32,535 nucleotides of DNA, from the IMG/VR virus record IMGVR_UViG_3300018424_000004; one strand, given 5' to 3'. Position numbers and translations under genes: made by a program. The DNA comes from a virus. Positions 124 to 17,646 of the stretch are shown piece after piece. Below the pieces are notes generated by a model. The model had not been told where the DNA came from and made no database searches. It saw only the letters and a program-made list of their open reading frames with translations. The first letter of the stretch is position 1; every line of letters starts with the position of its first letter.

Positions 124-138
124 ATATACTATTTTTAG

Positions 139-164
139 GGCTGGCCTTTTGGCTGGCCTTTTTT
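139..164 (+). terminator. Candidate rho-independent terminator at the end of the late operon
   Basis: GGCTGGCC (139-146), TTTT loop, GGCTGGCC (151-158). This gives an 8-bp stem (6 G:C plus 2 G:U) followed by T6 (159-164), just after the last late-strand gene. Confidence 0.5.
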
Positions 165-171
165 GTTGCCT

Positions 172-822: not shown

Positions 823-830
823 AACGCTCC

Positions 831-1329: not shown

Positions 1330-1374
1330 GGTTTTTCTCCTGTCTCGCTATCGCGTATGGGGGACATTTGCATA

Positions 1375-1809
1375 TTACGATGACTCCGGCATTGTTAAAA
1401 GGATTCCCTTTTCTGACCAGTGCCTAACCAATTCGTCTAGGTATCTTTTTTTCTGCTTCATTGTCATCAACCTAGTAACCGGGAAATCTAGCGGTTCCGC
1501 CATCATATTCATCTTGTATTCGTATGGTAGCGGCTTAATTATTTTATCATACTTTTCCCGAAAACCATCATTTTCTTCGCGTAAAATTGGGACGCCGATT
1601 GTTAATTTATTATAAGCCCTGATTTCTTCCGGCTTTTGGTCTCCAAGCTGTTCCGCTATTTCTTGGGTCCACTTTCTCTGAAGGGCGTTCTGTTCAACAC
1701 TACGCTTCCGCCCCTTTGTTATCGTCACGGTAAACGGTAGGCTATTTTCCTTTAAAAAGGAAAAGAGCATTTCTCTATCATGTTCCGTTGTGATAATTCG
1801 GCTTGTCAT
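1375..1809 (-). CDS. NinB/Orf-like recombination mediator
   Basis: FTVTITKGRKRSVEQNALQRKW resembles lambda NinB VVTIQERNRSLDQNRKLW. Size is similar (144 aa), the RBS is aaaggaaacga-ATG, and it lies in the recombination module. Confidence 0.55.
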   Translation of the reverse strand: MTSRIITTEHDREMLFSFLKENSLPFTVTITKGRKRSVEQNALQRKWTQEIAEQLGDQKPEEIRAYNKLTIGVPILREENDGFREKYDKIIKPLPYEYKMNMMAEPLDFPVTRLMTMKQKKRYLDELVRHWSEKGILLTMPESS

Positions 1810-1942
1810 TTCGTTTCCTTTCGCCAGCCGCCCGGCGCGTTAGCGGCGGCTAAATCACCCTCAAAGTGAACAATTCCCTTAACACTCGCCTTTCGTCTTT
1901 CATGCCGTTAATAGCCGCGCCGAAGGGCTTGGCGGTCCCTCG

Positions 1943-2233
1943 CTAGAATGGGATAGAGTCATCCAAATCATCGCTATTTGGCACATTCGGGGCCGAATCT
2001 TGCCGTGTGGCAGAATCTTGTTCAGACTCAGACGCCCCGCGAATATCGGACATTCGGACTGATTGGAATTTCCCCCGCGCACTTTCTTTTGTCCATGCTG
2101 CAAGGTTTAGCTTCTCGCCGGATTTAATATCCCGGTGGGCTATAACGTAACCCGTTGCGTCAGGGCGCTTTTCGTTGCCTTGTTTGTCGTTTTTGAATAG
2201 TGCGCCTGATCCAGGCAGGGGCTCAAATGGCAT
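1943..2233 (-). CDS. Small putative ssDNA-binding protein with an SSB-type acidic C-terminal tip
   Basis: The C-terminus ...SDDLDDSIPF mimics the bacterial SSB DDDIPF tip. The N-terminal ~60 aa (GALFKNDKQGNEKRPDATGYV...AAWTKESARGKF) is OB-like. Start chosen at MPFEP (2233); an alternative start is 2248. Confidence 0.5.
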   Translation of the reverse strand: MPFEPLPGSGALFKNDKQGNEKRPDATGYVIAHRDIKSGEKLNLAAWTKESARGKFQSVRMSDIRGASESEQDSATRQDSAPNVPNSDDLDDSIPF

Positions 2234-2780
2234 TTTTAATCTCCACATTTTTCCAGGTTAAGCGGCGTTTAATAAAGCTGATATTTTCTGGGGTAGTGTT
2301 ATAGTCCGCCGCGATTTCTACATATTTGCGTGTGTCGGCTAGTATTTTTACAACTTGCCCTGAGTTTAACTTGGCGAAAATATTTTCCTCGCCGGGCCTC
2401 CCAATGTTTTTCTGGAACATTGGATTGGACGAATTATTCACGAACCGACCCTTTCTTATGCAATCGGCCATATTGTCTTTTTGTGTCCCAACAAATAGGT
2501 GCTCTGGGTTGACGCATGACGGCTTATCGCAGGTGTGGCAAATAAGAAGGCCGTCTGGGATGGGGCCATAATGCAATTCCCATGAATACCGGCTCGCAAC
2601 CACCGCGCGGCCGTTCACTTTAATCCGCCCGTACCCGTTGCCCCTCAATGATCCGGCCCACAACCAACAGCCCGAGGACTTGTCTTTTACATAAGATTTA
2701 TGGAACCTAACATCGGCTGGCTTTGGTTTACACCCACCAAGCGTTCTCAGGTTCAGCCCCGGCTTTGCTTCATATGCCAT
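2223..2780 (-). CDS. HNH homing-type endonuclease
   Basis: GCWLWAGSLRGNGYGRIKVNGRAVVASR...ICHTCDKPSCVNPEHLFVGTQKDNMADC is the HNH_3-type signature. A C-terminal HTH-like tail is present. Confidence 0.85.
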   Translation of the reverse strand: MAYEAKPGLNLRTLGGCKPKPADVRFHKSYVKDKSSGCWLWAGSLRGNGYGRIKVNGRAVVASRYSWELHYGPIPDGLLICHTCDKPSCVNPEHLFVGTQKDNMADCIRKGRFVNNSSNPMFQKNIGRPGEENIFAKLNSGQVVKILADTRKYVEIAADYNTTPENISFIKRRLTWKNVEIKNAI

Positions 2781-3460
2781 TACATTTCATCCTTTGCTGC
2801 TAGTTTTTCTGTAGCGTCTTCTATCGCGCCCTGTGCGCCCCGCGAGTCGCCGACCGGGTAATACCAATTTGGCAGATCAACCTCTAATTGAGAGAGAATA
2901 TCATCACTAGCCTTGAGTAGTTCGTCAAGCATATCCCTTGTCGAACATTGGTTAAGGGCGTTGTGAAAATCTTTTGCGGCCTGCTTAAGTTTAGTTACGG
3001 GCAGAGGCCCAAACCATATCGCAGCGCGGTAAACCTTTTCCAGCGTGGTTATACCCTCCTGTGTTATCGCAAAACTGCGCCCTCTTGGTTCTATTGGCAC
3101 CCAAGGGGTGTCGATGTCGTAAAGATACCTGCCGATCCCCCAACGTACGGCTGCTCGCTTAAATGCGTCTGAAAACGCGCCCTTACTGCCCTCAAAATCG
3201 GTGTCACCGGCTCCATCTGCCTTCCAAATGCAGGTGTCATTTACCACAATCCCCAAGTCACAGCACGTTTTTTCCCCTGCGTGAGCATAGCGGCATTGCC
3301 AGTTTTCAGGTCCACAAACTGCGTCTAGTCGGTCCATAACCGCCCGAGCGTCCATATACGCCAAGGCCATGCCTTTGGTTTTATCTTTGTTTGTCGCGCC
3401 AACCCGCCATTCAATCTCATGGGGTCGGAATGGGCGCTTTAGTTTTTCAAAATCAATCAT
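2780..3460 (-). CDS. Rad52/Sak-family single-strand annealing protein
   Basis: KGAFSDAFKRAAVRWGIGRYLY motif, plus N-terminal HEIEWRVG...AYMDARAVMDRLD, typical of phage Rad52-like annealases. Confidence 0.8.
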   Translation of the reverse strand: MIDFEKLKRPFRPHEIEWRVGATNKDKTKGMALAYMDARAVMDRLDAVCGPENWQCRYAHAGEKTCCDLGIVVNDTCIWKADGAGDTDFEGSKGAFSDAFKRAAVRWGIGRYLYDIDTPWVPIEPRGRSFAITQEGITTLEKVYRAAIWFGPLPVTKLKQAAKDFHNALNQCSTRDMLDELLKASDDILSQLEVDLPNWYYPVGDSRGAQGAIEDATEKLAAKDEM

Positions 3461-3636
3461 CTTCCTTCCTTTCTTAAATCCCGCGCCCGGTCAATCATGT
3501 TTGCGTACTTATCCGACATTCTGGAACATGCAGCATCGGCGGTTTTGTCGTAGGCTTCCGCCTCCGTAGCCTCGGGGTGCTTTTCAAGGTATTCTTCAAT
3601 AAGTTCTTCGTGGGCTTCTATGAATAATTCTTTCAT
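3457..3636 (-). CDS. Hypothetical small protein
   Basis: ORF 3457..3696. An ATG at 3636 gives MKELFIEAHEELIEEYL...; a TTG at 3696 overlaps the upstream stop (TTGA) and is an alternative start. Confidence 0.5.
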   Translation of the reverse strand: MKELFIEAHEELIEEYLEKHPEATEAEAYDKTADAACSRMSDKYANMIDRARDLRKEGR

Positions 3637-3692
3637 GTTATTTCTCACTAACACTGGCAATGTTATTATGCAGATCGCCGTTACTTTCCATT

Positions 3693-3959
3693 TCAACCTC
3701 GCATATTGTTTTGGCGGATAATTTCTGTAAGGTTCTCACGCTTGAAATCTTCGGCAGCTTCTTCACCACTCCTTTTCCAAATAGGAATAATCCCTTCACC
3801 GCCGCATGTCGAGCAATCTTCGACGGATAAACATTCAGTTGGTTGGTAGCCGTTACCAACGCAATCAGGACAAACTTTGGACCCCGGATTATCGCGCAGC
3901 CTTGCATCAAGTTCAATTTGTAACATGGTTTCCTCGCAAGAGTGGGAAAGTTTGCTCAT
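3693..3959 (-). CDS. Small DnaJ-type zinc-finger protein (two CxxCxGxG repeats)
   Basis: CPDCVGNG ... CSTCGGEG. The ATG at 3959 overlaps the stop of the upstream micro-ORF (ATGA). An alternative ATG at 3926 has a GAGGAA RBS. Confidence 0.6.
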   Translation of the reverse strand: MSKLSHSCEETMLQIELDARLRDNPGSKVCPDCVGNGYQPTECLSVEDCSTCGGEGIIPIWKRSGEEAAEDFKRENLTEIIRQNNMRG

Positions 3960-4042
3960 AACCCATCCGCAATAAAAATAGCAAAATACAAAGTAAAGGT
4001 AATGGCAAAGCAAAAGACGATAGCTTGAGATAAGTTGTTCAT
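3956..4042 (-). CDS. 28-aa hydrophobic micro-protein (candidate)
   Basis: GGAG, 6 nt, then ATG. Translation MNNLSQAIVFCFAITFTLYFAIFIADGL. The stop overlaps the next start (ATGA). It is below the ORF-track length cutoff. Confidence 0.35.
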   Translation of the reverse strand: MNNLSQAIVFCFAITFTLYFAIFIADGL

Positions 4043-4045
4043 AAT

Positions 4046-4225
4046 CTACTCCACGTCACAGGGTTTATTGTTTCGTTCTAGCGCGTCGGCTCTTGTCGCA
4101 TTAACAGCGGCACCGGCAAGCCAATGTTTAATCAAATCAGGATCGGTTTCAATCGCAGCTTGCGCCCTACAGTGAATGGCTTGTGTTCTGTAAAAATCGA
4201 CCATTGATATGATCCTGGCGCTCAT
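4046..4225 (-). CDS. Hypothetical small protein
   Basis: ORF 4046..4234. The ATG at 4225 overlaps the upstream stop (TAATG) and follows GAGGGG. Confidence 0.5.
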   Translation of the reverse strand: MSARIISMVDFYRTQAIHCRAQAAIETDPDLIKHWLAGAAVNATRADALERNNKPCDVE

Positions 4226-4449
4226 TATACCCACCCCTCATCCTCAATGCGCCCCATTTCCTCGTTTCGGTCCTGAAGGGCGGCGTCAAGTGAGTCAACC
4301 AACATTTCGATGCAGCCTTCGCCGTCATCGTCAAGTTCAATCCCAATATCTTTATCAACCGCCTGAAGGGCCTCGATTGCCCTGCGAAGTTTTTCGGCTT
4401 CTTTGGCTGCGTCGTCGTAGCTTTGTTTGCATAAAATCGTATAAGCCAT
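4225..4449 (-). CDS. Strongly acidic 74-aa protein, first gene of the leftward early operon
   Basis: RBS GGAGGG, 4 nt, then ATG. By hand count, 21 of 74 residues are D/E against 8 K/R. It is the first cistron after the leftward promoter. Confidence 0.65.
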   Translation of the reverse strand: MAYTILCKQSYDDAAKEAEKLRRAIEALQAVDKDIGIELDDDGEGCIEMLVDSLDAALQDRNEEMGRIEDEGWV

Positions 4450-4471
4450 AATTCCCTCCGTTGTTTCTCAG

Positions 4472-4500
4472 ACTATATAAAACGGTTTATACAATGTCAA
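4472..4500 (-). promoter_or_regulatory. Leftward early promoter (PL-like)
   Basis: On the minus strand: TTGACA (4500-4495), 17 nt spacer, TATAGT (4477-4472). It lies about 20 nt upstream of the RBS of 4225..4449. Confidence 0.65.
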
Positions 4501-4522
4501 ACGATTTATCTAAAAAAATTTA

Positions 4523-4551
4523 TTGACGAAGTAAAAAGATTTTAGTATATG
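4523..4551 (+). promoter_or_regulatory. Rightward early promoter (PR-like), predicted to give a leaderless cro-like mRNA
   Basis: TTGACG (4523-4528), 17 nt spacer, TATATG (4546-4551). The seventh base after the -10 is the A of the ATG at 4558. Confidence 0.55.
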
Positions 4552-4557
4552 GTGGTT

Positions 4558-4761
4558 ATGTCTACAAAAAACGCATTAAAAAAAGCTATCAAAATCGCCG
4601 GGGGCCAATCGGCTCTTGCTAGGCTCATTGGTGTTCAACAAGAACACGTTTGGTACTGGCTACATAAATCCGGCAAAGTCTCACCGATCCAAGTGATCCC
4701 GATTGAAAAGGCCACGGGGGTATCAAGGCATGATTTACGCCCTGATATATACCCTAAATAA
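4558..4761 (+). CDS. Cro/YdaS-like HTH regulator
   Basis: AGGQSALARLIGVQQEHVWYWLHKSGKVSPIQVIPIEKATGVSRHDLRPDIYP is the YdaS/Cro-type pattern. The upstream ATG at 4549 lies inside the -10 hexamer and has no RBS. Confidence 0.75.
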   Translation: MSTKNALKKAIKIAGGQSALARLIGVQQEHVWYWLHKSGKVSPIQVIPIEKATGVSRHDLRPDIYPK

Positions 4762-4783
4762 TATTACAAAAACGGAGGAAAAA

Positions 4784-4951
4784 ATGAAAGTTTCTTGCTG
4801 GTCTGCTGATGGTAAAACGGTTGAATTGCGGGACTTCCCGCTTTCCCCAAATCAAATTCTTGACGATTCCTCCCTGGAAGCCGACTCCACGTCGGCACAA
4901 ACTAAACCCTCTGCGCCTTCGGGCGTGGGGGGTTCTTTTTTGGGGGAATGA
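4784..4951 (+). CDS. Hypothetical 55-aa protein
   Basis: GGAGGA, 5 nt, then ATG at 4784. This is the 3' part of ORF 4703..4951. Confidence 0.5.
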   Translation: MKVSCWSADGKTVELRDFPLSPNQILDDSSLEADSTSAQTKPSAPSGVGGSFLGE

Positions 4952-5403
4952 TGAAAAGGGATAAGTTAGATGCCGTTTTTTCCAATCTCGTGCGTGAACG
5001 CGCTAACTACATCTGTCAAGAATGTGGCATGGGTTACAGGCAAAAAACACAAGGGCTACATTGTTCACACCTATGGAGCAGGGCTAGGGCTAGTTGCCGA
5101 TATACCCCTGACGCCGCAGTTGCCCACTGTTACTCATGTCATCAGCGTTTATCGGGAAACCCTGTCAAATTTGCAGAAAGAATCCGAGAATACCTTGGGG
5201 ACCGCTTCTGTTTTATGCGAAGGGCCGCAAACTCAACGGTTAAACTTACTAAGTTAGAGAAAGAAGATATTTACCAGTTTTACAAAAAGGAACTAAAGAG
5301 GATTAGGGAACTGCGTAAATCCGGCCATGAGGGCAGAATTGAATTTGATATTCCGCCAATTCTTGATTTAAAACTTCGTGAGGCAGTAGCGAGGATGCAA
5401 TGA
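4948..5403 (+). CDS. NinG/Rap-like Cys/His protein (putative structure-specific endonuclease)
   Basis: FSNLVRERANYICQECG...HCSHLWSRA...HCYSCHQRLSGNPVKF parallels lambda Rap FIRERDRDLPCISCG...GHY...CVVCNQHKSGN. The ATGA start overlaps the upstream stop. Confidence 0.5.
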   Translation: MMKRDKLDAVFSNLVRERANYICQECGMGYRQKTQGLHCSHLWSRARASCRYTPDAAVAHCYSCHQRLSGNPVKFAERIREYLGDRFCFMRRAANSTVKLTKLEKEDIYQFYKKELKRIRELRKSGHEGRIEFDIPPILDLKLREAVARMQ

Positions 5404-5696
5404 ACGACCTTTTTGACCCCAAAACTCTAGCCCGGTCTAAGGACCCTGAAACATCGCATATATCCGCTAAAATGGCTGGCGGGATTCTCAAGGGCGATCA
5501 AGCCAAGATTATGAACTTCCCTGACGGCATCCATCCAATGTCTGCCACATACAAGGATATTGCGGGCGGAACAGGTTTAGAACCTGTTGCTGTCAATCGC
5601 CGGTTGAATGAACTAAAAAAACAAGGCCGGATTGTGGAAGCGGGGACGACGCTACTTGATAGCGGGCGGCCCGGTAGAACATGGATGGCGGCATGA
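5400..5696 (+). CDS. Winged-helix DNA-binding protein (MarR-like fold)
   Basis: RSKDPETSHISA...YKDIAGGTGLEPVAVNRRLNELKKQGRIVEAG is a typical wHTH recognition helix plus wing. The start is coupled to the upstream gene. Confidence 0.5.
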   Translation: MNDLFDPKTLARSKDPETSHISAKMAGGILKGDQAKIMNFPDGIHPMSATYKDIAGGTGLEPVAVNRRLNELKKQGRIVEAGTTLLDSGRPGRTWMAA

Positions 5697-6646: not shown

Positions 6647-8284
6647 TATCGGAACTTGAAAAGTTAGGCGTTTATTTAAACAACCATGAAAAGGGAGACC
6701 ATAAGGCGAAGTGTCCAAAGTGCCAGAGTACACGGCGGAAAAACAAGCACGATAAGCCTTTGTGGGTAACGATTGAACATGACGGAGCCGTTGGAAAATG
6801 CTTCCACTGCGAATGGAAATTCGGGTTTAAAACTTACAGCGAAAGCCCTGGAATGGTTCAAAGACAGGGGAATCGGCGAGAAAACACTCAAGGAAATGGG
6901 CGTCGGCAGCGGTATGGCGGTATTTGGTGACATTAAGACCGAAGCGGCGATTTTTAATTATTACCGTGATGGTCTGGTTGTTAATTACAAGGCTAGGGCT
7001 TTTGATGAAAAGCTATATAAACAGAAAAAAGGCGGGGAGCAGTGTTTTTATGGCCTAGAAGCCGTTTTAAGGGGGTCTAGGGACGTTGTGTATATTACTG
7101 AGGGGGAGATGGACGCTTTAAGCTTAATTGAGTGTGGGGTGCCTAAAAACCAAGTACTGAGCGTTCCTAATGGTGCGCCTCCTGAGCGAGTAGCCGATAA
7201 GGAAAATTCAGCCAAGTATCAGTATGTATATTCTGCCTTAGATGAAGGGTTGAACGATGTTAAGAAATTCATTTTAGCCGTCGATTCTGATGAAAAGGGC
7301 GATAATTTAAGGGAAGATTTAGCAGAAATCCTTGGAACTGTTAAATGTTCGTATATAAATTGGCCCGACAAGGACGCGAATGAACATTTAATGCAGTACG
7401 GGCCGGAACGCTTACTAGATTTTGTTTTAAATAAATCAATACCTTGCCCGGTCATTGGTTTGTATTCCTTATCCGAAATCCCCGAACCGGAACCAATGGA
7501 GTTGTGGAATCCGGGTTTTTATGAATGGGAAAACAAGGTTAAATTTTCACCTAAAATGTTTTCCGTCGCTACTGGCTGGCCGGGTCACGGTAAAACTATG
7601 TTAATGATGCAGTTATGGTATCAAATGGCAAAATCTTATGATTTTAGCTTTGCTGTATTTTCGGCGGAAACAAGGGTTAAGCCTCATCATCGGCGTAATT
7701 TTCGGCGCTGGATGTTTGGTAAGTATGAGGATGAACTAACGGAGCAGCAGATCAAAACCGCCGACGATTGGACAGAGGAAAACGTTAAGTTTATTTCACA
7801 TCCAAACGCTAGGCCGACATTTGGTTGGCTCCTGGATATGATTGAAGCGGCTCACGCTAGGTTTAATTGCCGGGCGGTTGTTATTGACCCTTGGAACAAA
7901 TTAGACACTCAGAAGCCAAGGGATAAAACAGAAACAGATTGGATTGGTGAATGTATTGATGACCTTATGGACGCCGCCAGAGGGTTAAATATGCATATTC
8001 AGGTTATCGCTCATCCGTCGAAGGGTGAAAAGCAATTTCGCAAGGATGCGCCCGCTTTGTCCGATATTCATGGCTCACAGCATTGGGAGAATAGACCAGA
8101 TCAAGGCTTTGCGGTTCACCGGCCAAGTGTTTTTAAGGATGGGGAACGGCAAACAGAGGCGGAATTTTACCACAGGAAAGCGCGGTTTGAAGAACTTGGT
8201 TATCCCTGTATGTTAAATATGGATTTTGAATTAAAAACAGGGCGTTATCGGTCAGTTGATTTTAAACAGGATTATGAGGAATAA
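6637..8284 (+). CDS. Bifunctional zinc-ribbon/TOPRIM primase and RepA/DnaB-like helicase (T7 gp4-like), interrupted by a +1 frame change
   Basis: ORF 6637..6930 carries the zinc ribbon (CPKC...CFHC). ORF 6773..8284 carries TOPRIM (ITEGEMDALS, AVDSDEKGD), Walker A (GWPGHGKT) and Walker B (AVVIDPWNKL). Removing one base in ttt-aaaa (6826-6832) gives a continuous ...CFHCEWKFGFKLTAKALEWFKDRGI... Confidence 0.8.
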
Positions 8285-8285
8285 T

Positions 8286-8663
8286 ATGAAAGAAGTTTTT
8301 GAGATACTTAAAAGGGTTTGTGAAGAATTTAATATTTCGATGGATGATTTGGTTTCAAGCCGAAGTCAGAGGTTTATTAAACCCCGTCAATATGCTATAT
8401 GGCTTTGTGTTAAGGATACCAAAGTTTCCATTAAAAGTTTAGCTGAGATTTTTAATCGAGGGGAATCCGCTATAACACATTCGCACCGGCAATACGAAAA
8501 AGCTGATAATTACAACAGGAAAAGGCGCGGATTGCCGCCGCTTTATACTGCCCGATTTTATACCGCAGTTAAGGCCGATAAACAAGTGCGTCCCGTTGAT
8601 TATGGCTATATTCCCGGCGCGATTAAGAAACTTGATGAGATGTATGACGGGCGGGTGTATTGA
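8286..8663 (+). CDS. DnaA-domain-IV-like HTH protein (GafY-like candidate)
   Basis: GAGGA RBS then ATG at 8286. DLVSSRSQRFIKPRQYAIWLCVKDTKVSIKSLAEIFNRGESAITHSHRQ parallels the DnaA C-terminal pattern S.R....v..RqiAMyL.r..t..Sl..IG..f.rDHsTV.ha. Confidence 0.65.
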   Translation: MKEVFEILKRVCEEFNISMDDLVSSRSQRFIKPRQYAIWLCVKDTKVSIKSLAEIFNRGESAITHSHRQYEKADNYNRKRRGLPPLYTARFYTAVKADKQVRPVDYGYIPGAIKKLDEMYDGRVY

Positions 8664-8799
8664 AAATATACGCTTTCATTGTAACCGTTTTTTGCGTGTT
8701 CTTGTATTCCATGCTTGACCGTGAAATTAAGGTTAGAAAGGCGTATGAGAGAGAAAGAAACGCGCTTCACTGTCAATTCATTGATGAACAGGGTGAAGA

Positions 8800-8979
8800 A
8801 TGTCTAAAATGATAGAGCAAACCCAATTGGTAGCGCAGATCATTGCTAACAACCGCGCCGAGCAGATAAACGCAACACGCGGCAAGGTTGGTATGAAGCC
8901 TATACAATTTAAGGATCAATATATATTCGATTCAGATATTGAAACAGCCCGTAAGATACTGGAGGCGCTTAGTGAGTGA
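8800..8979 (+). CDS. Hypothetical 59-aa protein
   Basis: ATG at 8800. The stop at 8977-8979 overlaps the GTG start of the next gene. It is just under the ORF-track cutoff. Confidence 0.4.
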   Translation: MSKMIEQTQLVAQIIANNRAEQINATRGKVGMKPIQFKDQYIFDSDIETARKILEALSE

Positions 8980-9478
8980 ACACTCTGATTTTGGCGCGTT
9001 AGACATAAAGGCCATTATGGCCGTAGGTAAAGGAACACTGGCGCGGCGGTCAGATGGCTCCTTAGTGATGATCGAGGAAACGATGAGGGCCGGTATTCAC
9101 CGAGCGCGTATCCTTGGTTTGCTGGAAAAATGGTTCTTAGCCGGGACAATAGGGAAAAAAGACGTAAACGCCGCGAGAAACTTTCATTCTGATTTTATCA
9201 CATACAATAGACAGCCAAAATATTCATCTAGTTCAATGGTTTACGTTGATGGCGGCAGGGGGTCGGCGGATGTGGAATCATTGGGACACCTGAAAGAACG
9301 GGCTAGAAAGCGTCTAAATGCTGCTTATGCCGCTGTTGGGCAGATAGCTACGCCTGTTATCATCGAGGTTATTGGTGAAGATAAACCGCTGTATCAATGC
9401 AGGGTTCCCAAGGACCGCGCGAAAAGGGTTCTTTTGAAGGCATTACCTCTTTTAGCTGCGTCTTATGGATATAAATAA
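8972..9478 (+). CDS. DUF6456-like protein; candidate late-gene activator/antiterminator (GafZ/Q-like by position)
   Basis: GGAGG (8961-8965), 6 nt, then GTG at 8972. The C-terminal ARKRLNAAYAAVGQIATPVIIEVIGEDKPL...RAKRVLLKALPLLAASYGY resembles the DUF6456 pattern as I recall it. It lies immediately upstream of the late promoter. Confidence 0.45.
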   Translation: MSEHSDFGALDIKAIMAVGKGTLARRSDGSLVMIEETMRAGIHRARILGLLEKWFLAGTIGKKDVNAARNFHSDFITYNRQPKYSSSSMVYVDGGRGSADVESLGHLKERARKRLNAAYAAVGQIATPVIIEVIGEDKPLYQCRVPKDRAKRVLLKALPLLAASYGYK

Positions 9479-9485
9479 TAAGGGG

Positions 9486-9524
9486 TTGACAGACGCGAAA
9501 TAGTTAGAGTATAATCGCTATAAT
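9486..9524 (+). promoter_or_regulatory. Late promoter with a duplicated -10 element (candidate sigma-dependent pause signal)
   Basis: TTGACA (9486-9491), 18 nt spacer, TATAAT (9510-9515). A second perfect TATAAT at 9519-9524 straddles the predicted start site (~9522). Confidence 0.7.
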
Positions 9525-9533
9525 CTATTATTT

Positions 9534-9564
9534 GCGCCCCGGAGGAATCCGCGAGGCGTTTTTT
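9534..9564 (+). terminator. Promoter-proximal intrinsic terminator (tR'-like)
   Basis: GC-rich hairpin at 9534-9558: inner CGGA/TCCG stem with a GGAA loop, extended by five more G:C pairs across two 1-nt bulges. T6 follows at 9559-9564. It lies about 40 nt after the predicted start and before the RBS of the first late gene. Confidence 0.6.
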
Positions 9565-9602
9565 ATTACCCGCATCGCCATTCAGGAATGCACGGAGGAT
9601 TT

Positions 9603-10862
9603 ATGCCAGCTGGTCGCCCACCTATATCCGGTCTAAACATTGAGAATAGAGAGATTAACAGCCTTGTCCCATATGTAAACAATGCCCGGACCCATACAGA
9701 CGAACAAGTGGCGCAAATAGCCGCAAGCATTAAGGAATTTGGCTGGACGAATCCGGTCCTTATTGACGGGGATGGCGGAGTGGTTGCTGGCCATGGTCGA
9801 ATCCTTGCTGCAAGGCAGCTTGGGCTAACCAATGTTCCCTGCATTGAGTTGGCCTATTTATCGGAAGCGCAGAGAAAGGCTTATATCCTCGCGGATAATA
9901 AACTAGCTGAGAATGCGGGATGGGATACTGAGTTACTAAGCCTTGAATTAGGCGCTTTAGCTGAGATGGACTTTGACTTAAGCCTGATAGGCTTTGGCGA
10001 GAGTGAAATCGCGGGCTTGCTTGATAAGAATGATGGTTTAACCGATCCTGATGAAGTGCCTGAAACGCCCGAAGACCCGGTAACAAAATTGGGCGATGTG
10101 TGGCTATTGGGTAAGCATAGGCTGGTTTGCGGGGATTCTACCGACGAAGGCGCTGTGTCGGCTTGTTTAGGCGGCGTAGAGCCTCATTTAATGGTTACAG
10201 ACCCGCCATATGGGGTTGAGTATGATGCGGATTGGCGGAATCGAATGGATAGGGCCAATGGCAAGCCCAACGGCGCACGCGCCGTAGGCGTGGTGCAGAA
10301 TGATAATAAGTCAGACTGGCGAGATGCTTGGGCGCTATTCCCTGGTGACGTGGCTTACGTGTGGCATGCTGGAAATATGGCAAATATTGTTGCTGATGGC
10401 CTGATTTCTTGCGGTCTTAATATCCGGGCGCAGATCATTTGGGTGAAGAGTAATATAGTTATAGGCCGCGGGGATTATCACCCGAAGCATGAGCCCTGCT
10501 GGTATGCCGTAAGAAAGAACAAAAAAGGCCATTACTGCGGGGGGCGCAAGCAAACAACGGTCTGGGACATCGACAAGCCCATGAAATCAGAGACTGGCCA
10601 CAGCACCCAGAAGCCCGTCGAGTGCATGAGGCGCCCCATTGAGAATAATTCGAGCCCCGGCCAAGCGGTTTATGATCCGTTTTTGGGATCAGGAACGACC
10701 ATTATTGCCGCGGAAATGACCGGGCGAAGTTGCCACGGATTAGAGTTACATCCGCCCTATTGCGATGTAATTATTAAACGCTGGCAGGATTTTACTGGTG
10801 AACAGGCTGTTTTAGAGGGTAGTGGAGAGAAATTCCCCACTATAAAAGCAGATGCCGCCTAA
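9603..10862 (+). CDS. ParB-like nuclease domain fused to an N6/N4 DNA methyltransferase
   Basis: GGAGGA RBS then ATG at 9603. The N-terminal part is ParB-like: L.PY.NNARTH...IKEFGWTNPVLID..GVVAGHGR..AA. The C-terminal part is N6_N4_Mtase-like: VTDPPYGV and DPFLGSGTT. Confidence 0.85.
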   Translation: MPAGRPPISGLNIENREINSLVPYVNNARTHTDEQVAQIAASIKEFGWTNPVLIDGDGGVVAGHGRILAARQLGLTNVPCIELAYLSEAQRKAYILADNKLAENAGWDTELLSLELGALAEMDFDLSLIGFGESEIAGLLDKNDGLTDPDEVPETPEDPVTKLGDVWLLGKHRLVCGDSTDEGAVSACLGGVEPHLMVTDPPYGVEYDADWRNRMDRANGKPNGARAVGVVQNDNKSDWRDAWALFPGDVAYVWHAGNMANIVADGLISCGLNIRAQIIWVKSNIVIGRGDYHPKHEPCWYAVRKNKKGHYCGGRKQTTVWDIDKPMKSETGHSTQKPVECMRRPIENNSSPGQAVYDPFLGSGTTIIAAEMTGRSCHGLELHPPYCDVIIKRWQDFTGEQAVLEGSGEKFPTIKADAA

Positions 10863-11202
10863 AATGGTAACAAAGCCCTCATTTAAGCCAACTGAGGAAG
10901 AGCGTAAGTTGGTCGAGCAGATGACGGCGGTGGGTATCCCCCAGGAATCTGTTTGCAAGGTTGTCCGTGACGGTATTGACGATAAGACGCTTCGCAAGCA
11001 TTTCCGTAAGGAATTAGATACGGCTAAGATTAAGGCTAACGCAAAGATTGGCGGCACGTTATTCAATAAGGCTATAAACGGTGACACTACGGCAGCTATC
11101 TTTTGGGCCAAGACTCAAATGGGTTGGAAAGAGGTTGACCGAAGGGAATTGGTTGGAGAAAACGGCGGCCCAATTATTTTATGGGGAACGTCGCAAGAAT
11201 AG
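10852..11202 (+). CDS. Terminase small subunit
   Basis: Sits directly upstream of TerL and overlaps it. HTH-like MTAVGIPQESVCKVV, and a C-terminal TAAIFWAKTQMGWKE motif common in small terminases. An alternative ATG is at 10864. Confidence 0.6.
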   Translation: MPPKMVTKPSFKPTEEERKLVEQMTAVGIPQESVCKVVRDGIDDKTLRKHFRKELDTAKIKANAKIGGTLFNKAINGDTTAAIFWAKTQMGWKEVDRRELVGENGGPIILWGTSQE

Positions 11203-12434
11203 GGGCGGCAAGCCCCGTTTTTAACGATCTACTTAAACCATCACGATATAAGGCGCTCTATGGCGGGCGTGGTTCGGGCAAGTCACATTTCTTCGCTGAG
11301 GCAATGGCGGCCAACGCTAAGTTAAACACTGGCTTTCGTGCTGTCTGTATTCGCGAGGTTCAAAAGAGCCTAAAGGAATCGGCCAAGCGGCTCTTAGAGG
11401 ACAAGATAGCGCAGTTAGGGTTCTCTAATTTCTTTGATGTTCAGGCTGACAGGATCGTAACGCCTGGGAATGGCGTTATCATCTTTCAGGGTATGCAGGA
11501 CCATACTGCTGAGTCAATCAAGTCACTTGAGGGGTTTAATATTGCCTGGGTTGAGGAAGGTCAGACGCTTTCCTCTCGTTCCTTAGAGATGCTGCGGCCT
11601 ACTATTCGCGCACCGGGTTCGGAACTATGGTTCTCATGGAATCCGAGGTTAGCCAGCGATTCAGTTGATAAGTTCTTTAGGGGTGAAAGTCCGCCTGAAG
11701 ATGCAATCATACGGAAAATAAACTACGACCAGAATTTAAGGTTCCCCGCTGAATTAGAGGCGGAGCGATTACACGATAAGCAGCACAATCCTGATAGATA
11801 TGCCCATGTTTGGCTTGGTGAATATGAGCCGATGGCTGTGGGCGCGATTTGGGATCGACAGACGATCAACGACCTACGTAGAAAAGAAGCACCTGAACTA
11901 GAGAGGATCGTTGTCTCTGTTGATCCCGCCGTATCGAGCGAAGAAAACTCAGATGAGCACGGTATTATAGCTTGTGCGCTTGGTGCCGATAATCGGGGCT
12001 ATGTCGTTGATGATGTATCAATGAAGGGTTCCCCGAGGCAATGGGCTGACAGGGCTGTTGCTTTGTATGACCGCTTAGAAGCTGACGCCGTTGTGATTGA
12101 GGTCAACCAGGGCGGTGATATGGTTAGGCATACGTTAGAGAGTGTCCGGCCCGGCTTACCGATAATCGAGGTTCGCGCAACTCGCGGCAAGCACGTTAGA
12201 GCGGAACCGATTAGTGCTTTGTATGCGCTTGGCCGGATAAGCCATATAGGGACGTTTTCTAAGTTAGAAGATCAGATGTGTCAAATGACGGCAGCGGGGT
12301 TTGAAGGTGAAGGTTCGCCTGACCGTGTTGACGCATTAGTATGGGGTTTTACTGAATTATTTCCACAAATTAACCGGTCTAAACAGGCCGAGGTTCATAT
12401 AGATATGCCCGCTGAGGGCGGTTGGATGGCTTAA
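11181..12434 (+). CDS. Terminase large subunit (PBSX/Terminase_3-like)
   Basis: Walker A in YKALYGGRGSGKSHFF, Walker B-like IAWVEEGQ, and a C-terminal nuclease region VSVDPA... Confidence 0.85.
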   Translation: MGNVARIGAASPVFNDLLKPSRYKALYGGRGSGKSHFFAEAMAANAKLNTGFRAVCIREVQKSLKESAKRLLEDKIAQLGFSNFFDVQADRIVTPGNGVIIFQGMQDHTAESIKSLEGFNIAWVEEGQTLSSRSLEMLRPTIRAPGSELWFSWNPRLASDSVDKFFRGESPPEDAIIRKINYDQNLRFPAELEAERLHDKQHNPDRYAHVWLGEYEPMAVGAIWDRQTINDLRRKEAPELERIVVSVDPAVSSEENSDEHGIIACALGADNRGYVVDDVSMKGSPRQWADRAVALYDRLEADAVVIEVNQGGDMVRHTLESVRPGLPIIEVRATRGKHVRAEPISALYALGRISHIGTFSKLEDQMCQMTAAGFEGEGSPDRVDALVWGFTELFPQINRSKQAEVHIDMPAEGGWMA

Positions 12435-13141: not shown

Positions 13142-15275
13142 TCCCATTCTGAAAGAGGCCCTTGAGAAGTTCAAGGAGTCTCAAGACGGCTCAGAGTTTA
13201 ACCGGCAGGCGGCAGAGGATGATATTCGCTTTGCTCGGTTGTCTGACCAATGGCCGGACGATATTGCAAAGATACGGAAAGAGGAAGGCCGCCCCTTTTT
13301 AACGATTAACCGGCTGCCTGCGTACATTCGCCAAGTTGTTAATGAATCGAGGCAGAACAAGCCTGCGATTAAAGTTTCCCCTGTAGATAACGGGGCTGAC
13401 GTTAAAACTGCTGAGGTTATCGGCGGTTTGGTCCGGTCTGTCGAGCGCAAGAGCAACGCCGAGGTTGCTTACGATACGGCTATTGACCATTCAGTTACGG
13501 GTGGCTTCGGGTTCTTTCGGATTGATATTGACTACGCTCACCCTGATTCGTTTGACTTAGAAGCGCAGATAAACCGGATTCCTAATCCTTTAATGGTCCA
13601 TTGGGACACGAGTTCAACTGAATTCGACGCTTCCGATTGGGATTATGCCTTCGTGTCTGAAATGGTGCGGCTGGATGAGTATGAAAAAACATATCCCGGC
13701 GCTGACGCTGTTGACTTTGAAGGCGAGGACGAGGCCTTAACTGAGAATTGGCTTGATAATGAACAAGTTCGGGTTGCTGAGTATTGGACCCGCGAAGAGA
13801 ATAAGCGCACTATTATCCAATTATCGGACGGAAGGGTTGTTCGTGAAGATAACCTTTTTAACATAGCAAAGCGGTTCCTTGAAGACTTGGGCAAGGAATT
13901 TGCGGGGGCCGAGGAAGAACTGATTCGCTGGTTTATGGCGGAACAAGGTTTATCGGAAGTGCGCCGCCGTGAAGCTGCGTATCACGAGGTTAAGCGCCGG
14001 GTTATTTCGGGCGCTGATGTTTTAGAAGAAGAAGACTGGCCGGGTTCGACAATCCCGATTTGCCCTGTTTGGGGTGAGGAGGTTTATTCGGATGGACGCA
14101 GGCATTTCCGGTCGATGATTCGGGACGCTAAAGACCCGCAACAAATGACAAACTTCTGGCGGTCTGCTAGTACGGAATTGGTTGCATTGGCACCAAGAGC
14201 GCCTTGGGTTGTTGAAGAAGGCGCTATTCCTAAAGGTAAGGAAGCTAAGTGGCAAACGGCTAATACCCGTTCCCATCCTTATCTTGAGTATGCCAAGGGT
14301 TCTAATATGCCGCAGCGGCAGCCCTTCGCCGGTGTTCCTGCGGGCGCATTGCAAGAGGCCATGAACGCCGCTGAAGACATGCAGGACATTATGGGCATTT
14401 ACCCGTCCTCTATTGGTGCTCGGTCAAACGAAACATCCGGCAAGGCGATTCTTGCTAGAGAGCGTCAAGGTGACGTTTCCAACTTCCATTTCATCGATAA
14501 CCTTGCCCGCGCTATTCAATACGCCGGGCGGGTTCTGGTTGAGATTATCCCCTCGGTGTATTCCCCGCGCGAATCCATCCGTATTCTTGGCGAAGATATG
14601 AAGGAAGAAGTGGTTCAGCTAACCCAAGAGGCGGGCGGGGCTGATGATGAAGGCATTAACGGGCAGGATAAGCTCTACAACTTGTCGGTTGGGCGGTATG
14701 ACGTAACGGTATCAACGGGGCCGTCATTCGCGACTCAGCGAGAGGAAACCCGTGAAGCATTGATTGAGATTATGCGGAATATTCCTGACTCCGCCCAATA
14801 TATCGGTGACGTTCTCATGGAGCACATGGATTTCCAGGGCGCTGATAAGGTTTCTAAACGCTTGCAGATGCTTCTACCGCAGGCCGTAAGGGACGCGGAG
14901 AATGATGGTGATGCAATGCCGCCAGAGGCAAAGATGGCCTTGGCACAATCTCAGCAACAGGTTCAACAAATGCAACAGCAAATGCAGGAGTTGATAGGCA
15001 GATTGCAGCAGTCCGAGCAGGCGGTTAATGATAAGACGCAAGAGACGCAGGCCAGAGCTGCTAATGATGCGAGGCGCTTGGATTTAGAGGAACGCAAGGT
15101 TGCGGTGTCTGAGAGAGATATGGATTTAAAAGAAGCCATTGCTGAACATAATGCTGACGTTGACCTTGTTGACCAAGAGAATGAAGCGGTTAAGACCGCG
15201 TATGAAATAACAAACGCTGAATATCCCAACGAAGAAGCTTACGGCCCCCCGGATGACAGGGATATAGATATTTAG
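13125..15275 (+). CDS. Portal protein, P22 gp1-like
   Basis: DDIRFARLSDQWPDD...GRPFLTINRLPAYIRQVVNESRQNKPAIKVSPVD aligns by eye with P22 gp1 (NDLFFSRVSQWDDW...[24 protein letters not shown]). The long Q-rich coiled-coil C-terminus (QSQQQVQQMQQQMQELIGRLQQ) resembles the P22 portal barrel. Confidence 0.85.
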   Translation: MPETSDPILKEALEKFKESQDGSEFNRQAAEDDIRFARLSDQWPDDIAKIRKEEGRPFLTINRLPAYIRQVVNESRQNKPAIKVSPVDNGADVKTAEVIGGLVRSVERKSNAEVAYDTAIDHSVTGGFGFFRIDIDYAHPDSFDLEAQINRIPNPLMVHWDTSSTEFDASDWDYAFVSEMVRLDEYEKTYPGADAVDFEGEDEALTENWLDNEQVRVAEYWTREENKRTIIQLSDGRVVREDNLFNIAKRFLEDLGKEFAGAEEELIRWFMAEQGLSEVRRREAAYHEVKRRVISGADVLEEEDWPGSTIPICPVWGEEVYSDGRRHFRSMIRDAKDPQQMTNFWRSASTELVALAPRAPWVVEEGAIPKGKEAKWQTANTRSHPYLEYAKGSNMPQRQPFAGVPAGALQEAMNAAEDMQDIMGIYPSSIGARSNETSGKAILARERQGDVSNFHFIDNLARAIQYAGRVLVEIIPSVYSPRESIRILGEDMKEEVVQLTQEAGGADDEGINGQDKLYNLSVGRYDVTVSTGPSFATQREETREALIEIMRNIPDSAQYIGDVLMEHMDFQGADKVSKRLQMLLPQAVRDAENDGDAMPPEAKMALAQSQQQVQQMQQQMQELIGRLQQSEQAVNDKTQETQARAANDARRLDLEERKVAVSERDMDLKEAIAEHNADVDLVDQENEAVKTAYEITNAEYPNEEAYGPPDDRDIDI

Positions 15276-17586: not shown

Positions 17587-17603
17587 GCCGTAAGGCTTTA
17601 GCG

Positions 17604-17632
17604 GGGAGGGCTTCGGCTCTCCCTGTTTTTTT
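17604..17632 (+). terminator. Rho-independent terminator/attenuator after the capsid gene
   Basis: GGGAGGGC, TTCG loop, GCTCTCCC (8-bp stem with one G:U), then TG and T7 (17626-17632). Confidence 0.7.
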
Positions 17633-17646
17633 AAGGAGAAAATAAA

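What the first reader, a model, noticed from the sequence alone, without database searches (positions are those of the whole stretch)
8286..9565. Candidate GafY/GafZ-like (Q-like) late-gene antitermination switch in a bona fide phage
Seen:
- 8286..8663 encodes a ~125-aa protein with a DnaA-domain-IV-like HTH core.
- 8972..9478 (GGAGG, 6 nt, GTG) encodes a protein whose C-terminal half looks DUF6456-like.
- Within 10 bp of its stop lies a near-perfect sigma70 promoter, TTGACA-18-TATAAT (9486-9515).
- A second perfect TATAAT at 9519-9524 straddles the predicted start site.
- A GC-rich hairpin plus T6 follows at 9534-9564. Unmodified RNA polymerase should therefore make only a ~40-nt RNA before reaching the first late gene (RBS 9594, ATG 9603) and the ~23 kb of virion and lysis genes behind it.

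Established:
- Lambdoid late control uses a constitutive PR', a -10-like sigma-dependent pause element in the initially transcribed region, a proximal terminator, and Q encoded immediately upstream.
- As I recall, gene-transfer-agent activators (GafA in Rhodobacter; GafY plus GafZ in Caulobacter) combine a DnaA-like HTH with a second module, and GafZ has been reported to act as an antiterminator.

Inference: these two proteins form a split activator/antiterminator for the late operon. That would be a possible phage counterpart or ancestor of the GTA regulators, with an architecture convergent on lambda Q.
Basis: partly seen in the sequence, partly recalled or inferred. Interest (0 to 1): 0.75.

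Follow-up and report, generated by a model that had tools for sequence, protein, structure and literature searches.

The report
Phage late-gene antitermination switch, GafZ-type
A P22-like phage from an estuarine or marine metagenome carries, just ahead of its virion genes, a relative of the gene-transfer-agent antiterminator GafZ followed by a consensus promoter and a terminator at a fixed distance, which looks like a lambda-Q-style late switch built from a different protein family.

Summary
ORF 8286-8663 is a DnaA-domain-IV HTH protein. ORF 8972-9478 belongs to the DUF6456 family, which holds the GafA C-terminal domain and GafZ. Seven bases after its stop lies the only perfect TTGACA-18-TATAAT in the window, then a second TATAAT, then a hairpin plus T6 ending about 43 nt after the predicted start. 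About 23 kb of same-strand packaging and virion genes follow.

Comparative evidence is new. DUF6456 genes sit at the "Q position" (last early gene before terminase) in most of about nine phage lineages. In four lineages (about 30-53% protein identity to the window protein) a promoter-hairpin-T-run unit recurs. In all four the hairpin's 5' arm, GCGCCC, starts exactly 48 nt after the -35. The arms resemble the published Caulobacter GafZ-binding palindrome.

Best reading: a GafZ-family protein is this phage's late-gene antiterminator, working like lambda Q without being a Q homolog.

The "split GafY/GafZ pair" is weakly supported. The DnaA-like gene is present in only two of nine lineages and is never adjacent. 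The consensus -35 also removes the need for a GafY-type activator.

Phage GafA homologs were already known in roseophage RDJLphi1. This is therefore a new variant of a known kind, of moderate to high interest.

The parts
8286..8663 (+). 125-aa DnaA-domain-IV-type HTH protein (GafY-like candidate). It lies directly after the primase-helicase gene 6773-8284.
   Evidence: Pfam Bac_DnaA_C E=3.4e-13. TIGR00362 DnaA C-terminal region E=5.5e-12. PDB 1j1v E=7.7e-4. The only relative among the related phages is L001 7145-7639, 37% identical over the HTH.
8660..8812 (+). 50-aa ORF with a hydrophobic N-terminus, translationally overlapping both neighbours.
   Evidence: ORF list. A 50-aa ORF sits at the same position in L029, with only a weak match (E=0.001).
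8800..8979 (+). 59-aa ORF that travels with DUF6456 genes. Function unknown.
   Evidence: Homolog L029 5841-6020, E=1e-8. That protein in turn matches L001 10798-11028, E=2e-7.
8972..9478 (+). 168-aa GafZ-like (DUF6456) protein, the proposed late-gene antiterminator.
   Evidence: Pfam DUF6456 E=4.2e-5. 80 representative relatives were found, and 61 of the 72 aligned family members hit DUF6456. AF2 model pLDDT 85, pTM 0.74: an N-terminal 4-strand sheet plus helices, with a C-terminal HTH-like bundle. Weak sigma region 4 matches. BFVD fold hits to uncharacterised phage proteins, including one named DUF6456.
9486..9515 (+). Late promoter: -35 TTGACA (9486-9491), 18-nt spacer, -10 TATAAT (9510-9515). 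The spacer carries a G-N-CGCG-AAATA motif (9492-9503) shared with close relatives. The start site is predicted near 9522.
   Evidence: Only 12/12 match in the window, 0.02 expected by chance. The spacer motif is conserved in L007, L001, L005 and L009, and partly in L029.
9519..9524 (+). Second -10-like hexamer TATAAT, about -3 to +3 of the predicted start. Candidate sigma-dependent pause element; unproven.
   Evidence: A second hexamer 3-4 nt after the first is also present in L005 (TAAGAT), L001 (TAGAAT) and L029 (TAAAAT). It is weak in L007 and L032 and absent in L033.
9534..9567 (+). Promoter-proximal intrinsic terminator: bulged hairpin GCGCCCCGGA-GGAA-UCCGCGAGGCG (9534-9558) followed by TTTTTTATT. 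Its arms resemble the Caulobacter GafZ-binding palindrome.
   Evidence: Folds at -14.3 kcal/mol. Equivalent hairpins in L005/L009, L033 and L032 all have GCGCCC starting exactly 48 nt after the -35 start. The cassette is 70% identical to L005 while the flanks are at the random level.
9603..10862 (+). First late gene, a ParB_N + N6/N4 DNA methyltransferase. It is followed by TerS 10852-11202 and TerL 11181-12434.
   Evidence: Pfam and PHROG hits. L003 has the same gene order.
17600..17633 (+). Strong internal terminator directly after the major head protein gene (16372-17586). A processive antiterminator would have to read through it.
   Evidence: 12-bp stem plus T7. Folding energy -21.6 kcal/mol. 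Second strongest + strand terminator candidate in the window.

Best explanation
The 168-aa DUF6456 protein (8972-9478) is this phage's late-gene antiterminator. It is made from the early-right operon, which runs from the Cro-like gene at 4549 through the replication genes to 9478.

The late promoter at 9486-9515 is a consensus sigma-70 promoter and needs no activator. Unmodified RNA polymerase terminates about 40-45 nt downstream at the hairpin plus T6 (9534-9564). The same terminator also stops read-through from the early operon.

Once the GafZ-like protein accumulates, it engages polymerase at this promoter. The recognition site is either the conserved spacer motif or the GCGCCC...GGCG palindrome that forms the hairpin arms. 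Polymerase becomes termination-resistant. It then reads through the proximal terminator and the strong terminator after the capsid gene (17600-17633), expressing about 23 kb of packaging, virion and lysis genes.

Shown: protein family, gene order, promoter and terminator anatomy, and conservation of the unit and its geometry across phage lineages.

Inferred: promoter activity, termination, the antitermination activity of this protein, and which DNA or RNA element it recognises.

The DnaA-IV-like protein (8286-8663) is probably not an obligatory partner.
For: 1. Family. DUF6456 E=4.2e-5 for the query, and 61 of the 72 aligned family members hit DUF6456. GafA BLAST hits are annotated DUF6456 (PMC9638019). 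GafZ is homologous to the GafA C-terminal part and acts as an antiterminator at PgtaT (PMC11150451). RDJLphi1 gp38, which I take to be the published phage GafA homolog, hits DUF6456 at E=9e-11.
2. Position. The DUF6456 gene is the last or nearly last early gene before terminase or other late genes in the window, L001/L003, L007, L029, L013, L033 and L032.
3. Promoter. It is the only perfect promoter in the window, 0.02 expected by chance. The late region has no promoter-like site better than 9/12, and fewer such sites than shuffles (16 against 22.6).
4. Promoter-hairpin unit. It recurs in L005/L009 even though a methylase gene (plus a sigma-r4 gene in L009) lies between the DUF6456 gene and the unit. 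It is 70% identical there, against 51-54% in the flanks and 53 +/- 3.6% in shuffles. It recurs in L033 directly after the DUF6456 stop codon, and in L032.
5. Geometry. The distance from the -35 start to GCGCCC is exactly 48 nt in all four lineages. The strict pattern was found 5 times against 0.3 expected.
6. Folding. All four hairpins fold at -13.9 to -22.4 kcal/mol and are followed by T-rich tails. L007 has a hairpin with a U-rich tail about 150 nt downstream instead.
7. Binding-site resemblance. L033 carries GCGCCCG...CTGGCGC, identical to the two halves of the Caulobacter ZBE palindrome.
8. Internal terminator. A strong terminator follows the capsid gene.
Against: - No experiment. Promoter use, termination and antitermination are all predicted.
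- The query's own DUF6456 score is just under Pfam's gathering cut-off.
- No direct comparison with Caulobacter GafZ or Rhodobacter GafA was possible, because their sequences were not retrievable. hhalign to RDJLphi1 gp38 is weak (E=0.0012, probability 19%).
- No significant PDB fold match. No Q21 or Q-lambda structure appears among the best 50.
- L001 and L029 have the promoter motif but no canonical U-tract terminator in the leader.
- Hairpin covariation cannot be shown with four sequences.
- The window hairpin alone is only moderately better than shuffles (z=-1.8).
- The ZBE resemblance could be a coincidence of GC-rich palindromes. In Caulobacter the element lies between -35 and -10, not at +13.
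Confidence: 0.6

Rival explanations
1. The DnaA-IV-like protein (GafY-like) and the DUF6456 protein (GafZ-like) form a split activator/antiterminator complex, and both are needed for late transcription, as GafY+GafZ are for the Caulobacter GTA cluster.
For: - Both domain types are present in one overlapping operon.
- The related phage L001 also has both a DnaA_C protein and a DUF6456 protein.
- DnaA_C proteins seem uncommon in phages. The only PHROG hit is a family of unknown function, and tblastn found only 4 GenBank phage records. Two co-occurrences may therefore exceed chance.
- In GTA hosts, 494 of 759 GafZ homologs have an adjacent GafY (PMC9632790), and GafY and GafZ interact (PMC11150451).
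Against: - No DnaA_C gene is on record in L005, L010, L013, L029, L032, L033 or L034.
- At the equivalent position L029 has an unrelated 133-aa protein.
- The two genes are not adjacent in either phage that has both.
- The late promoter has a consensus -35. In Caulobacter a near-consensus -35 made the chimeric PgtaT promoter active with or without GafYZ.
- The gene sits directly after the primase-helicase gene, which fits a replication or origin-binding role equally well.
Confidence: 0.2
2. The DUF6456 protein is a conventional DNA-binding regulator (a sigma-4-like activator, or a repressor binding the palindrome at +13 to +37). The hairpin plus T6 is simply the terminator of the early operon, or an insulator. 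No processive antitermination is involved.
For: - The C-terminal part is sigma-region-4-like.
- GafA was first described as an activator that binds promoter DNA and RNA polymerase omega (PMC9638019).
- A palindrome just downstream of the start site is a classic operator position.
- L001 and L029 lack a clear terminator.
Against: - A consensus promoter placed upstream of a terminator would be futile unless its transcripts can be made to pass.
- The promoter-to-hairpin order and the exact 48-nt spacing are kept in four lineages, and the T-run is kept as well.
- The unit moved as a block relative to the genes in L005/L009.
- A consensus promoter needs no activator.
- A second strong terminator lies inside the late operon.
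- GafZ itself is reported to act by antitermination (PMC11150451).
Confidence: 0.15
3. The cassette makes a functional short RNA, or a cis-acting RNA element in the manner of HK022 put (from my own knowledge). The neighbouring DUF6456 gene is unrelated to it.
For: - The 5' arm GCGCCC is invariant while the inner stems and loops vary. This would suit recognition of a specific sequence or RNA.
- The L001 leader is unusually structured (z=-5.3).
Against: - No Rfam family matches anywhere in the window.
- The hairpin followed by a U-tract has the standard intrinsic-terminator shape.
- The link to DUF6456 genes recurs in lineages whose flanking genes differ.
Confidence: 0.05

Closest known systems
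GafZ of Caulobacter crescentus (CCNA_01112) and the C-terminal domain of Rhodobacter capsulatus GafA (DUF6456)
   Same: - Same Pfam family by profile.
- Sigma-region-4-like C-terminal HTH (PMC11150451).
- Controls a long head-tail gene cluster from one promoter with terminators downstream.
- A GC-rich palindrome at the target promoter resembles the ZBE GCGCCCG-CTGGCGC.
   Different: - Encoded by a complete phage, not a host chromosome.
- The target promoter has consensus -35 and -10 elements, whereas PgtaT has a degenerate -35 and needs GafY and IHF.
- The terminator lies at +13 to +43, whereas terGTA lies after the first gene behind a leader of about 250 nt.
- The palindrome is split and lies downstream of the start site, not in the spacer.
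- There is no conserved GafY partner.
Lambdoid Q antiterminators (Q-lambda, Q21, Q82) with PR', a sigma-dependent pause element and tR'
   Same: - The gene lies immediately upstream of a strong, apparently constitutive late promoter.
- A conserved element sits in the promoter.
- A -10-like hexamer lies near the start site.
- A terminator lies before the late genes, and further terminators lie inside the late operon.
- The lambda details are from my own knowledge and from PMC11150451.
   Different: - No sequence or fold match to any Q family. The Pfam scan returned only DUF6456, and no Q structure appears in the best 50 Foldseek PDB matches.
- The terminator is much closer to the promoter: about 43 nt, against about 194 nt for lambda 6S RNA (own knowledge).
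- The second hexamer straddles the start site instead of lying at +1 to +6.
- The hairpin position is fixed relative to the promoter.
GafA homolog of roseophage RDJLphi1 (gp38, next to a truncated CtrA gene)
   Same: A phage-encoded DUF6456 protein, already cited as a link between phages and GTA regulators (PMC6363796).
   Different: - gp38 is a 310-aa fused GafA-type protein in a 62.7-kb siphovirus.
- It lies far from the terminase gene and on the opposite strand.
- Only its last ~65 residues match DUF6456.
- No promoter-terminator cassette has been described for it.
- It is too distant from the window protein for HMM detection.
BrrG of the Bartonella GTA (BaGTA), a Q-like antiterminator of phage origin
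   Same: A phage-derived antiterminator that binds the promoter region of the structural gene cluster and lets transcription pass a terminator. The authors argue that BrrG, GafZ, GafA and Q21 share structural features (bioRxiv 10.1101/2024.11.20.624540).
   Different: It belongs to a different GTA lineage. Homology with the window protein was not tested here.

Membership tests
DUF6456 / GafZ-GafA C-terminal family | Sequence match to Pfam PF20057 over most of the domain. | tested here: met
   The query scores E=4.2e-5, 24.1 bits (gathering cut-off 26.3), covering profile 26-135 of 136. 61 of the 72 aligned family members hit the model, best E=2.1e-15. The query's own score is marginally below the curated cut-off.
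DUF6456 / GafZ-GafA C-terminal family | C-terminal sigma-factor-like (region 4) helix-turn-helix. | tested here: inconclusive
   The AF2 model has confident C-terminal helices 99-164. The family profile weakly hits ECF sigma region 4 (E=0.25 and 0.37). The best meaningful Foldseek PDB hit is sigma-28, probability 0.75, E=0.47. The results are suggestive, not significant.
DUF6456 / GafZ-GafA C-terminal family | Direct homology to an experimentally studied member (CcGafZ or RcGafA). | not testable with these tools
   Their sequences could not be retrieved; both genome-contig scans found nothing. The link runs through the Pfam model and RDJLphi1 gp38.
DUF6456 / GafZ-GafA C-terminal family | Dedicated binding element at the single target promoter (ZBE palindrome between -35 and -10). 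| tested here: inconclusive
   A conserved spacer motif G-N-CGCG-AAATA occurs in close relatives only. A ZBE-like palindrome is present but sits at +13 and forms the terminator arms.
DUF6456 / GafZ-GafA C-terminal family | [quoted passage not shown] | not testable with these tools
   Needs transcription assays or ChIP.
GafY-GafZ two-gene module | A DnaA-domain-IV-like gene adjacent to and co-inherited with the DUF6456 gene. | tested here: not met
   DnaA_C is confirmed for 8286-8663. Two ORFs intervene here, and five genes intervene in L001. No DnaA_C gene is found in L005, L010, L013, L029, L032, L033 or L034.
GafY-GafZ two-gene module | Target promoter with a degenerate -35 that depends on GafY (and IHF). 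| tested here: not met
   The -35 is TTGACA here and in L001, L005, L007, L009 and L033. Compare PgtaT, whose -35 is AATCAT.
Lambdoid Q-type late switch (functional class) | Regulator gene directly upstream of a strong late promoter, with a terminator between the promoter and the late genes. | tested here: met
   Stop codon at 9478, promoter 9486-9515, hairpin plus T6 at 9534-9564, first late gene at 9603. The layout recurs in L005/L009, L033, L032 and L007.
Lambdoid Q-type late switch (functional class) | Sigma-dependent pause element (-10-like hexamer in the initially transcribed region). | tested here: inconclusive
   A second hexamer is present at 9519-9524. Equivalents exist in L005, L001 and L029, are weak in L007 and L032, and are absent in L033. 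Pausing itself cannot be tested.
Q-lambda / Q21 / Q82 protein families | Sequence or fold homology to a Q protein. | tested here: not met
   The Pfam scan at E<=1 returned only DUF6456. The PDB sequence search found nothing. Foldseek against PDB gave no hit with E<=0.001 and no Q structure among the best 50.

The most novel reading that the evidence does not exclude
DUF6456/GafZ proteins are a widespread, previously unrecognised family of phage late-gene antiterminators, functionally a further 'Q' family. Their loading signal is the promoter-proximal terminator itself: a GCGCCC...GGCGC palindrome held exactly 48 nt from the -35 serves both as the stop signal for unmodified polymerase and as the recognition element (DNA or nascent RNA) for the antiterminator. 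The GafZ/ZBE system of the GTAs would then be a domesticated, rearranged descendant.
Probability: 0.3. Interest if true: 0.8.

Novelty: new variant of a known kind. Interest (0 to 1): 0.62.

Why it matters
GafZ was shown to be an antiterminator only in 2024. How it loads onto RNA polymerase, and where it came from, are both open.

A bona fide phage carries a GafZ-family gene at the Q position, next to a compact (about 80 bp) consensus promoter plus terminator unit. That gives a minimal system with sigma-70 consensus elements, which may be portable to standard in vitro transcription for studying this family. It needs no GafY, IHF or 250-nt leader.

It supports the idea that the RogA-GafYZ cascade of GTAs descends from a phage early-to-late switch.

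The family also appears in many uncultured phages, with 80 cluster representatives at 50% identity. It may therefore be a common but unannotated solution to late-gene control, useful for annotating early/late boundaries in metagenomic phage genomes.

Tried and rejected
- DNA similarity to GenBank phages found only methylase and terminase fragments and no relative of the region.
- tblastn of the 168-aa protein against GenBank phages found nothing.
- Protein-pattern scans of IMG/VR and of GTDB genomes found no relatives, so no host could be assigned.
- The metagenome scan gave only two loci.
- DNA-motif scans of IMG/VR for the spacer motif and for the hairpin returned only chance or coding hits. 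None had a DUF6456 ORF nearby.
- The PDB sequence search with the query found nothing. The Foldseek PDB search gave no significant hit, so the published claim of Q21-like features could not be reproduced or refuted.
- I tried to tie the family to cultured Rhodobacter phages. BFVD gave a fold hit to an RcRhea protein. The candidate RcCronus gp43 showed no sequence support, so I dropped this line.
- RNAalifold on four hairpins gave no usable consensus or covariation.
- Rfam and tRNA scans of the window were empty.
- The near-match of the spacer motif at 3475-3494 (3 mismatches) is at chance level, reached by 11 of 100 shuffles.
Full report
**What is in the sequence**

- ORF 8286-8663 (ATG, GAGG 6 nt upstream) follows the stop of a Toprim/DnaB-type primase-helicase gene (6773-8284) by one base.
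- Two small overlapping ORFs follow (8660-8812, 50 aa; 8800-8979, 59 aa).
- ORF 8972-9478 starts at GTG with GGAGG 6 nt upstream. Homologs begin with the same MSEHSDFGAL, which supports this start.
- Seven bases after its TAA lies TTGACA-18-TATAAT (9486-9515). It is the only 12/12 sigma-70 match in the window, against 0.02 expected by chance.
- A second TATAAT lies at 9519-9524.
- A bulged hairpin lies at 9534-9558, followed by TTTTTTATT. It folds at -14.3 kcal/mol.
- Taking the start site about 7 nt after the -10, the hairpin begins near +13 and the U-tract ends near +43.
- RBS 9594-9598 and ATG 9603 open a ParB_N-methyltransferase gene. TerS, TerL, portal, scaffold, major head protein and further virion genes follow, all on the + strand to the window end.
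- The late region has no promoter-like site above 9/12.
- A custom scan ranks the 9534 hairpin among four compact hairpin+T6 sites on the + strand. All four lie at junctions between gene blocks: 137-160, 4905-4934, 9534-9558 and 17600-17627.

**The two proteins**

The 125-aa protein is a DnaA-domain-IV HTH.
- Pfam Bac_DnaA_C gives E=3.4e-13, above the cut-off.
- The TIGR00362 DnaA C-terminal region gives E=5.5e-12.
- PDB 1j1v gives E=7.7e-4.

The 168-aa protein matches DUF6456 over nearly the whole model (E=4.2e-5, 24.1 bits, cut-off 26.3).
- A profile built from it and five close homologs found 80 cluster representatives among 1.84 billion proteins. Most are 140-200 aa.
- 61 of the 72 aligned family members hit DUF6456 on their own.
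- DUF6456 is the annotation that BLAST hits of Rhodobacter GafA carry (PMC9638019).
- Caulobacter GafZ is homologous to the GafA C-terminal part (PMC9632790, PMC11150451).
- RDJLphi1 gp38 lies beside the phage's truncated ctrA gene. I take it to be the GafA homolog cited by Fogg 2019 (PMC6363796). It hits DUF6456 at E=9e-11.

The AlphaFold2 model is confident (pLDDT 85, pTM 0.74). It shows a four-strand N-terminal sheet, two helices, a low-confidence linker and a three-helix C-terminal bundle.
- No solved structure matches significantly. The best meaningful hits are sigma factors: sigma-28 at probability 0.75 and ECF sigma region 4 at E=0.25-0.37 with the family profile. This agrees with the sigma-like HTH reported for GafZ and GafA.
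- No Q protein appears among the best 50 matches.
- In the viral structure library the top matches are uncharacterised phage proteins, one of them named DUF6456.

**Context in other phages**

I recovered the DNA around nine lineages of the family.
- Window, L001/L003 (65% identity), L007 (96%), L029, L013 and L033: the DUF6456 gene is the last gene of the early/replication block. After an intergenic gap of 180-400 nt come the small and large terminase genes or other late genes.
- L032: one gene intervenes.
- L005/L009: a methylase intervenes, plus a sigma-region-4 protein in L009.
- L010: the contig ends soon after the gene.
- L034: an HTH gene and several small genes follow.

This is the position of Q in lambdoid phages (own knowledge).

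**The promoter-terminator unit is conserved as a unit**
- L005/L009: downstream of the inserted methylase lies TTGACA, a related spacer, two -10-like hexamers, the hairpin GCGCCCGGA-TAGT-TCCGTGAGGCGC, and T7.
- This unit is 70% identical to the window's. The 80-nt flanks are 51-54% identical, no better than shuffles (53 +/- 3.6%, maximum 64%).
- L033 (protein about 34% identical): directly after the stop codon lies TTGACA-18-TAAAAA, then 18 nt, then GCGCCCGGAAC-CTAAC-CGTTCCGCTGGCGC, A, T6.
- L032: TTGAAC-18-TATAAG, 18 nt, GCGCCCGCCGG-GAAA-CCGAGCGGGCG, TTTCGATT.
- In all four lineages GCGCCC starts exactly 48 nt after the first base of the -35.
- The strict pattern TTGANN-N42-GCGCCC occurs 5 times in 11 unique loci, against 0.3 expected.
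- The 5' arm is invariant, while inner stems, loops and 3' arms differ yet keep pairing (-13.9 to -22.4 kcal/mol).
- Four sequences are too few for formal covariation.
- L007 keeps the promoter and spacer motif and has a different hairpin with a U-rich tail about 150 nt downstream.
- L001 and L029 keep the promoter motif but show no canonical terminator.
- Close relatives share a spacer motif, TTGAC[AG]G-N1-3-CGCG-AAA(A)TA. L033 and L032 do not have it.

**A lead on recognition**

Tran and Le mapped the GafZ-binding element of the Caulobacter GTA promoter to the palindrome GCGCCCG-CTGGCGC between -35 and -10.
- The phage hairpin arms are GCGCCC(C)G ... (C/T)GAGGCG(C) in the window and L005.
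- L033 carries GCGCCCG ... CTGGCGC exactly.
- This may be a coincidence of GC-rich palindromes.
- Together with the invariant 5' arm and the fixed spacing, it suggests the hairpin region may be the recognition element as well as the terminator. I rate this at about 0.3.

**The GafY-like protein**
- A DnaA_C gene accompanies the DUF6456 gene only in the window and in L001. The two are 37% identical over the HTH, and in L001 five genes lie between them.
- No DnaA_C gene is on record in L005, L010, L013, L029, L032, L033 or L034.
- L029 keeps the 50-aa and 59-aa ORFs plus the DUF6456 block but has an unrelated 133-aa protein in place of the DnaA_C gene.
- In Caulobacter, GafY with IHF compensates for a degenerate -35. 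Swapping in a near-consensus -35 made the chimeric PgtaT promoter active with or without GafYZ. Here the -35 is consensus.
- I therefore do not regard the 125-aa protein as an obligatory partner. Its place next to the primase-helicase fits a replication role equally well.
- Two co-occurrences of an otherwise uncommon phage domain leave some room for a link (about 0.2).

**Mechanism proposed**
- Early transcription from the Cro-side promoter region near 4520 yields the replication proteins and, last, the DUF6456 protein.
- The late promoter fires constitutively, but its transcripts, and early read-through, end at 9564.
- The DUF6456 protein engages polymerase at this promoter and makes it termination-resistant.
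- Polymerase then passes the proximal terminator and the strong terminator after the capsid gene (17600-17633).
- Only the anatomy and its conservation are shown. The activities are inferred from GafZ (PMC11150451) and from the logic of a promoter placed upstream of a terminator.

**Comparison and novelty**
- It works like lambda Q but is not a Q homolog.
- It is a member of the DUF6456/GafZ family but differs from the GTA system in four ways: a consensus promoter, a terminator at +13 to +43, a palindrome downstream of the start site, and no conserved GafY.
- Phage GafA homologs were already known (PMC6363796).
- A Q-like nature of GafZ and GafA has been proposed (bioRxiv 10.1101/2024.11.20.624540).
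- In full-text searches, DUF6456 occurs in two papers, and seven papers hold at least two of GafZ, GafY and anti-termination. In the passages I read in five of these papers, no phage DUF6456 late switch is described.
- I class it as a new variant of a known kind.

**Limits**
- No host could be assigned.
- No direct comparison with CcGafZ or RcGafA was possible.
- No experiment was possible.

Noticed in passing
window 4905-4934 (+ T6 to 4941): A very strong hairpin terminator (13-bp stem, -24.4 kcal/mol, z=-4.1) lies inside the early-right operon. It sits just after the Cro/YdaS-like gene 4549-4761 and before the NinG-like gene 4948-5403. This is a lambda tR1-like position and implies early attenuation or a second antitermination step.
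   Followed up: partly
window 17600-17633: A strong terminator (12-bp stem plus T7) lies directly after the major head protein gene, inside the late operon.
   Followed up: partly
window 8800-8979; L029 5841-6020; L001 10798-11028: A small protein of 59-76 aa travels with DUF6456 genes. The window and L029 copies match at E=1e-8, and the L029 and L001 copies at E=2e-7. In L001 it is the first gene downstream of the late promoter rather than upstream. Function unknown.
   Followed up: partly
L009 1152-1751: A 199-aa protein with a Sigma-70 region 4 domain (E=5.8e-11) is inserted between the DUF6456 gene and the methylase in a Tara Oceans relative. The otherwise near-identical L005 lacks it.
   Followed up: no
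window 1126-1156, 13994-14014, 14199-14224, 21117-21132, 22931-22959: Five further GCGCC...GGCGC inverted repeats, all away from the late promoter (the four from 13994 on lie inside long late-region ORFs). The total is 11 strand-counts, against 1.7 in mononucleotide shuffles. They could be extra binding or pause sites, or a composition or methylase-motif effect.
   Followed up: no
window 9603-10862; L003 1617-2840: The first late gene is a ParB_N-N6/N4 DNA methyltransferase fusion. It is conserved as the first or second late gene in the L001/L003 lineage. In L005/L009 a methylase without ParB_N sits upstream of the late promoter instead.
   Followed up: no
L001 10575-10720: The leader downstream of the late promoter in the 65%-identity relative is unusually structured (-53.3 kcal/mol, z=-5.3) but has no canonical U-tract terminator.
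   Followed up: no
window 4472-4500 (- strand) and about 4515-4550 (+ strand): This is a divergent early control region. An 11/12 promoter (TTGACA-17-TATAGT) points left toward the Rad52-like/HNH operon, and a TTGACG...TATATG promoter points right toward the Cro-like gene. The Pfam scans I ran on ten ORFs in 97-5696 found no cI-type repressor or integrase.
   Followed up: no
BFVD hit A0A0K1LM32 (Rhodobacter phage RcRhea); L031 34648-35166 (RcCronus gp43): The model has a fold match to an uncharacterised protein of a cultured Rhodobacter capsulatus phage (probability 0.99, E=0.02). A 172-aa gene just before the terminase end of the related RcCronus could be its counterpart, but sequence profiles do not confirm it.
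   Followed up: partly
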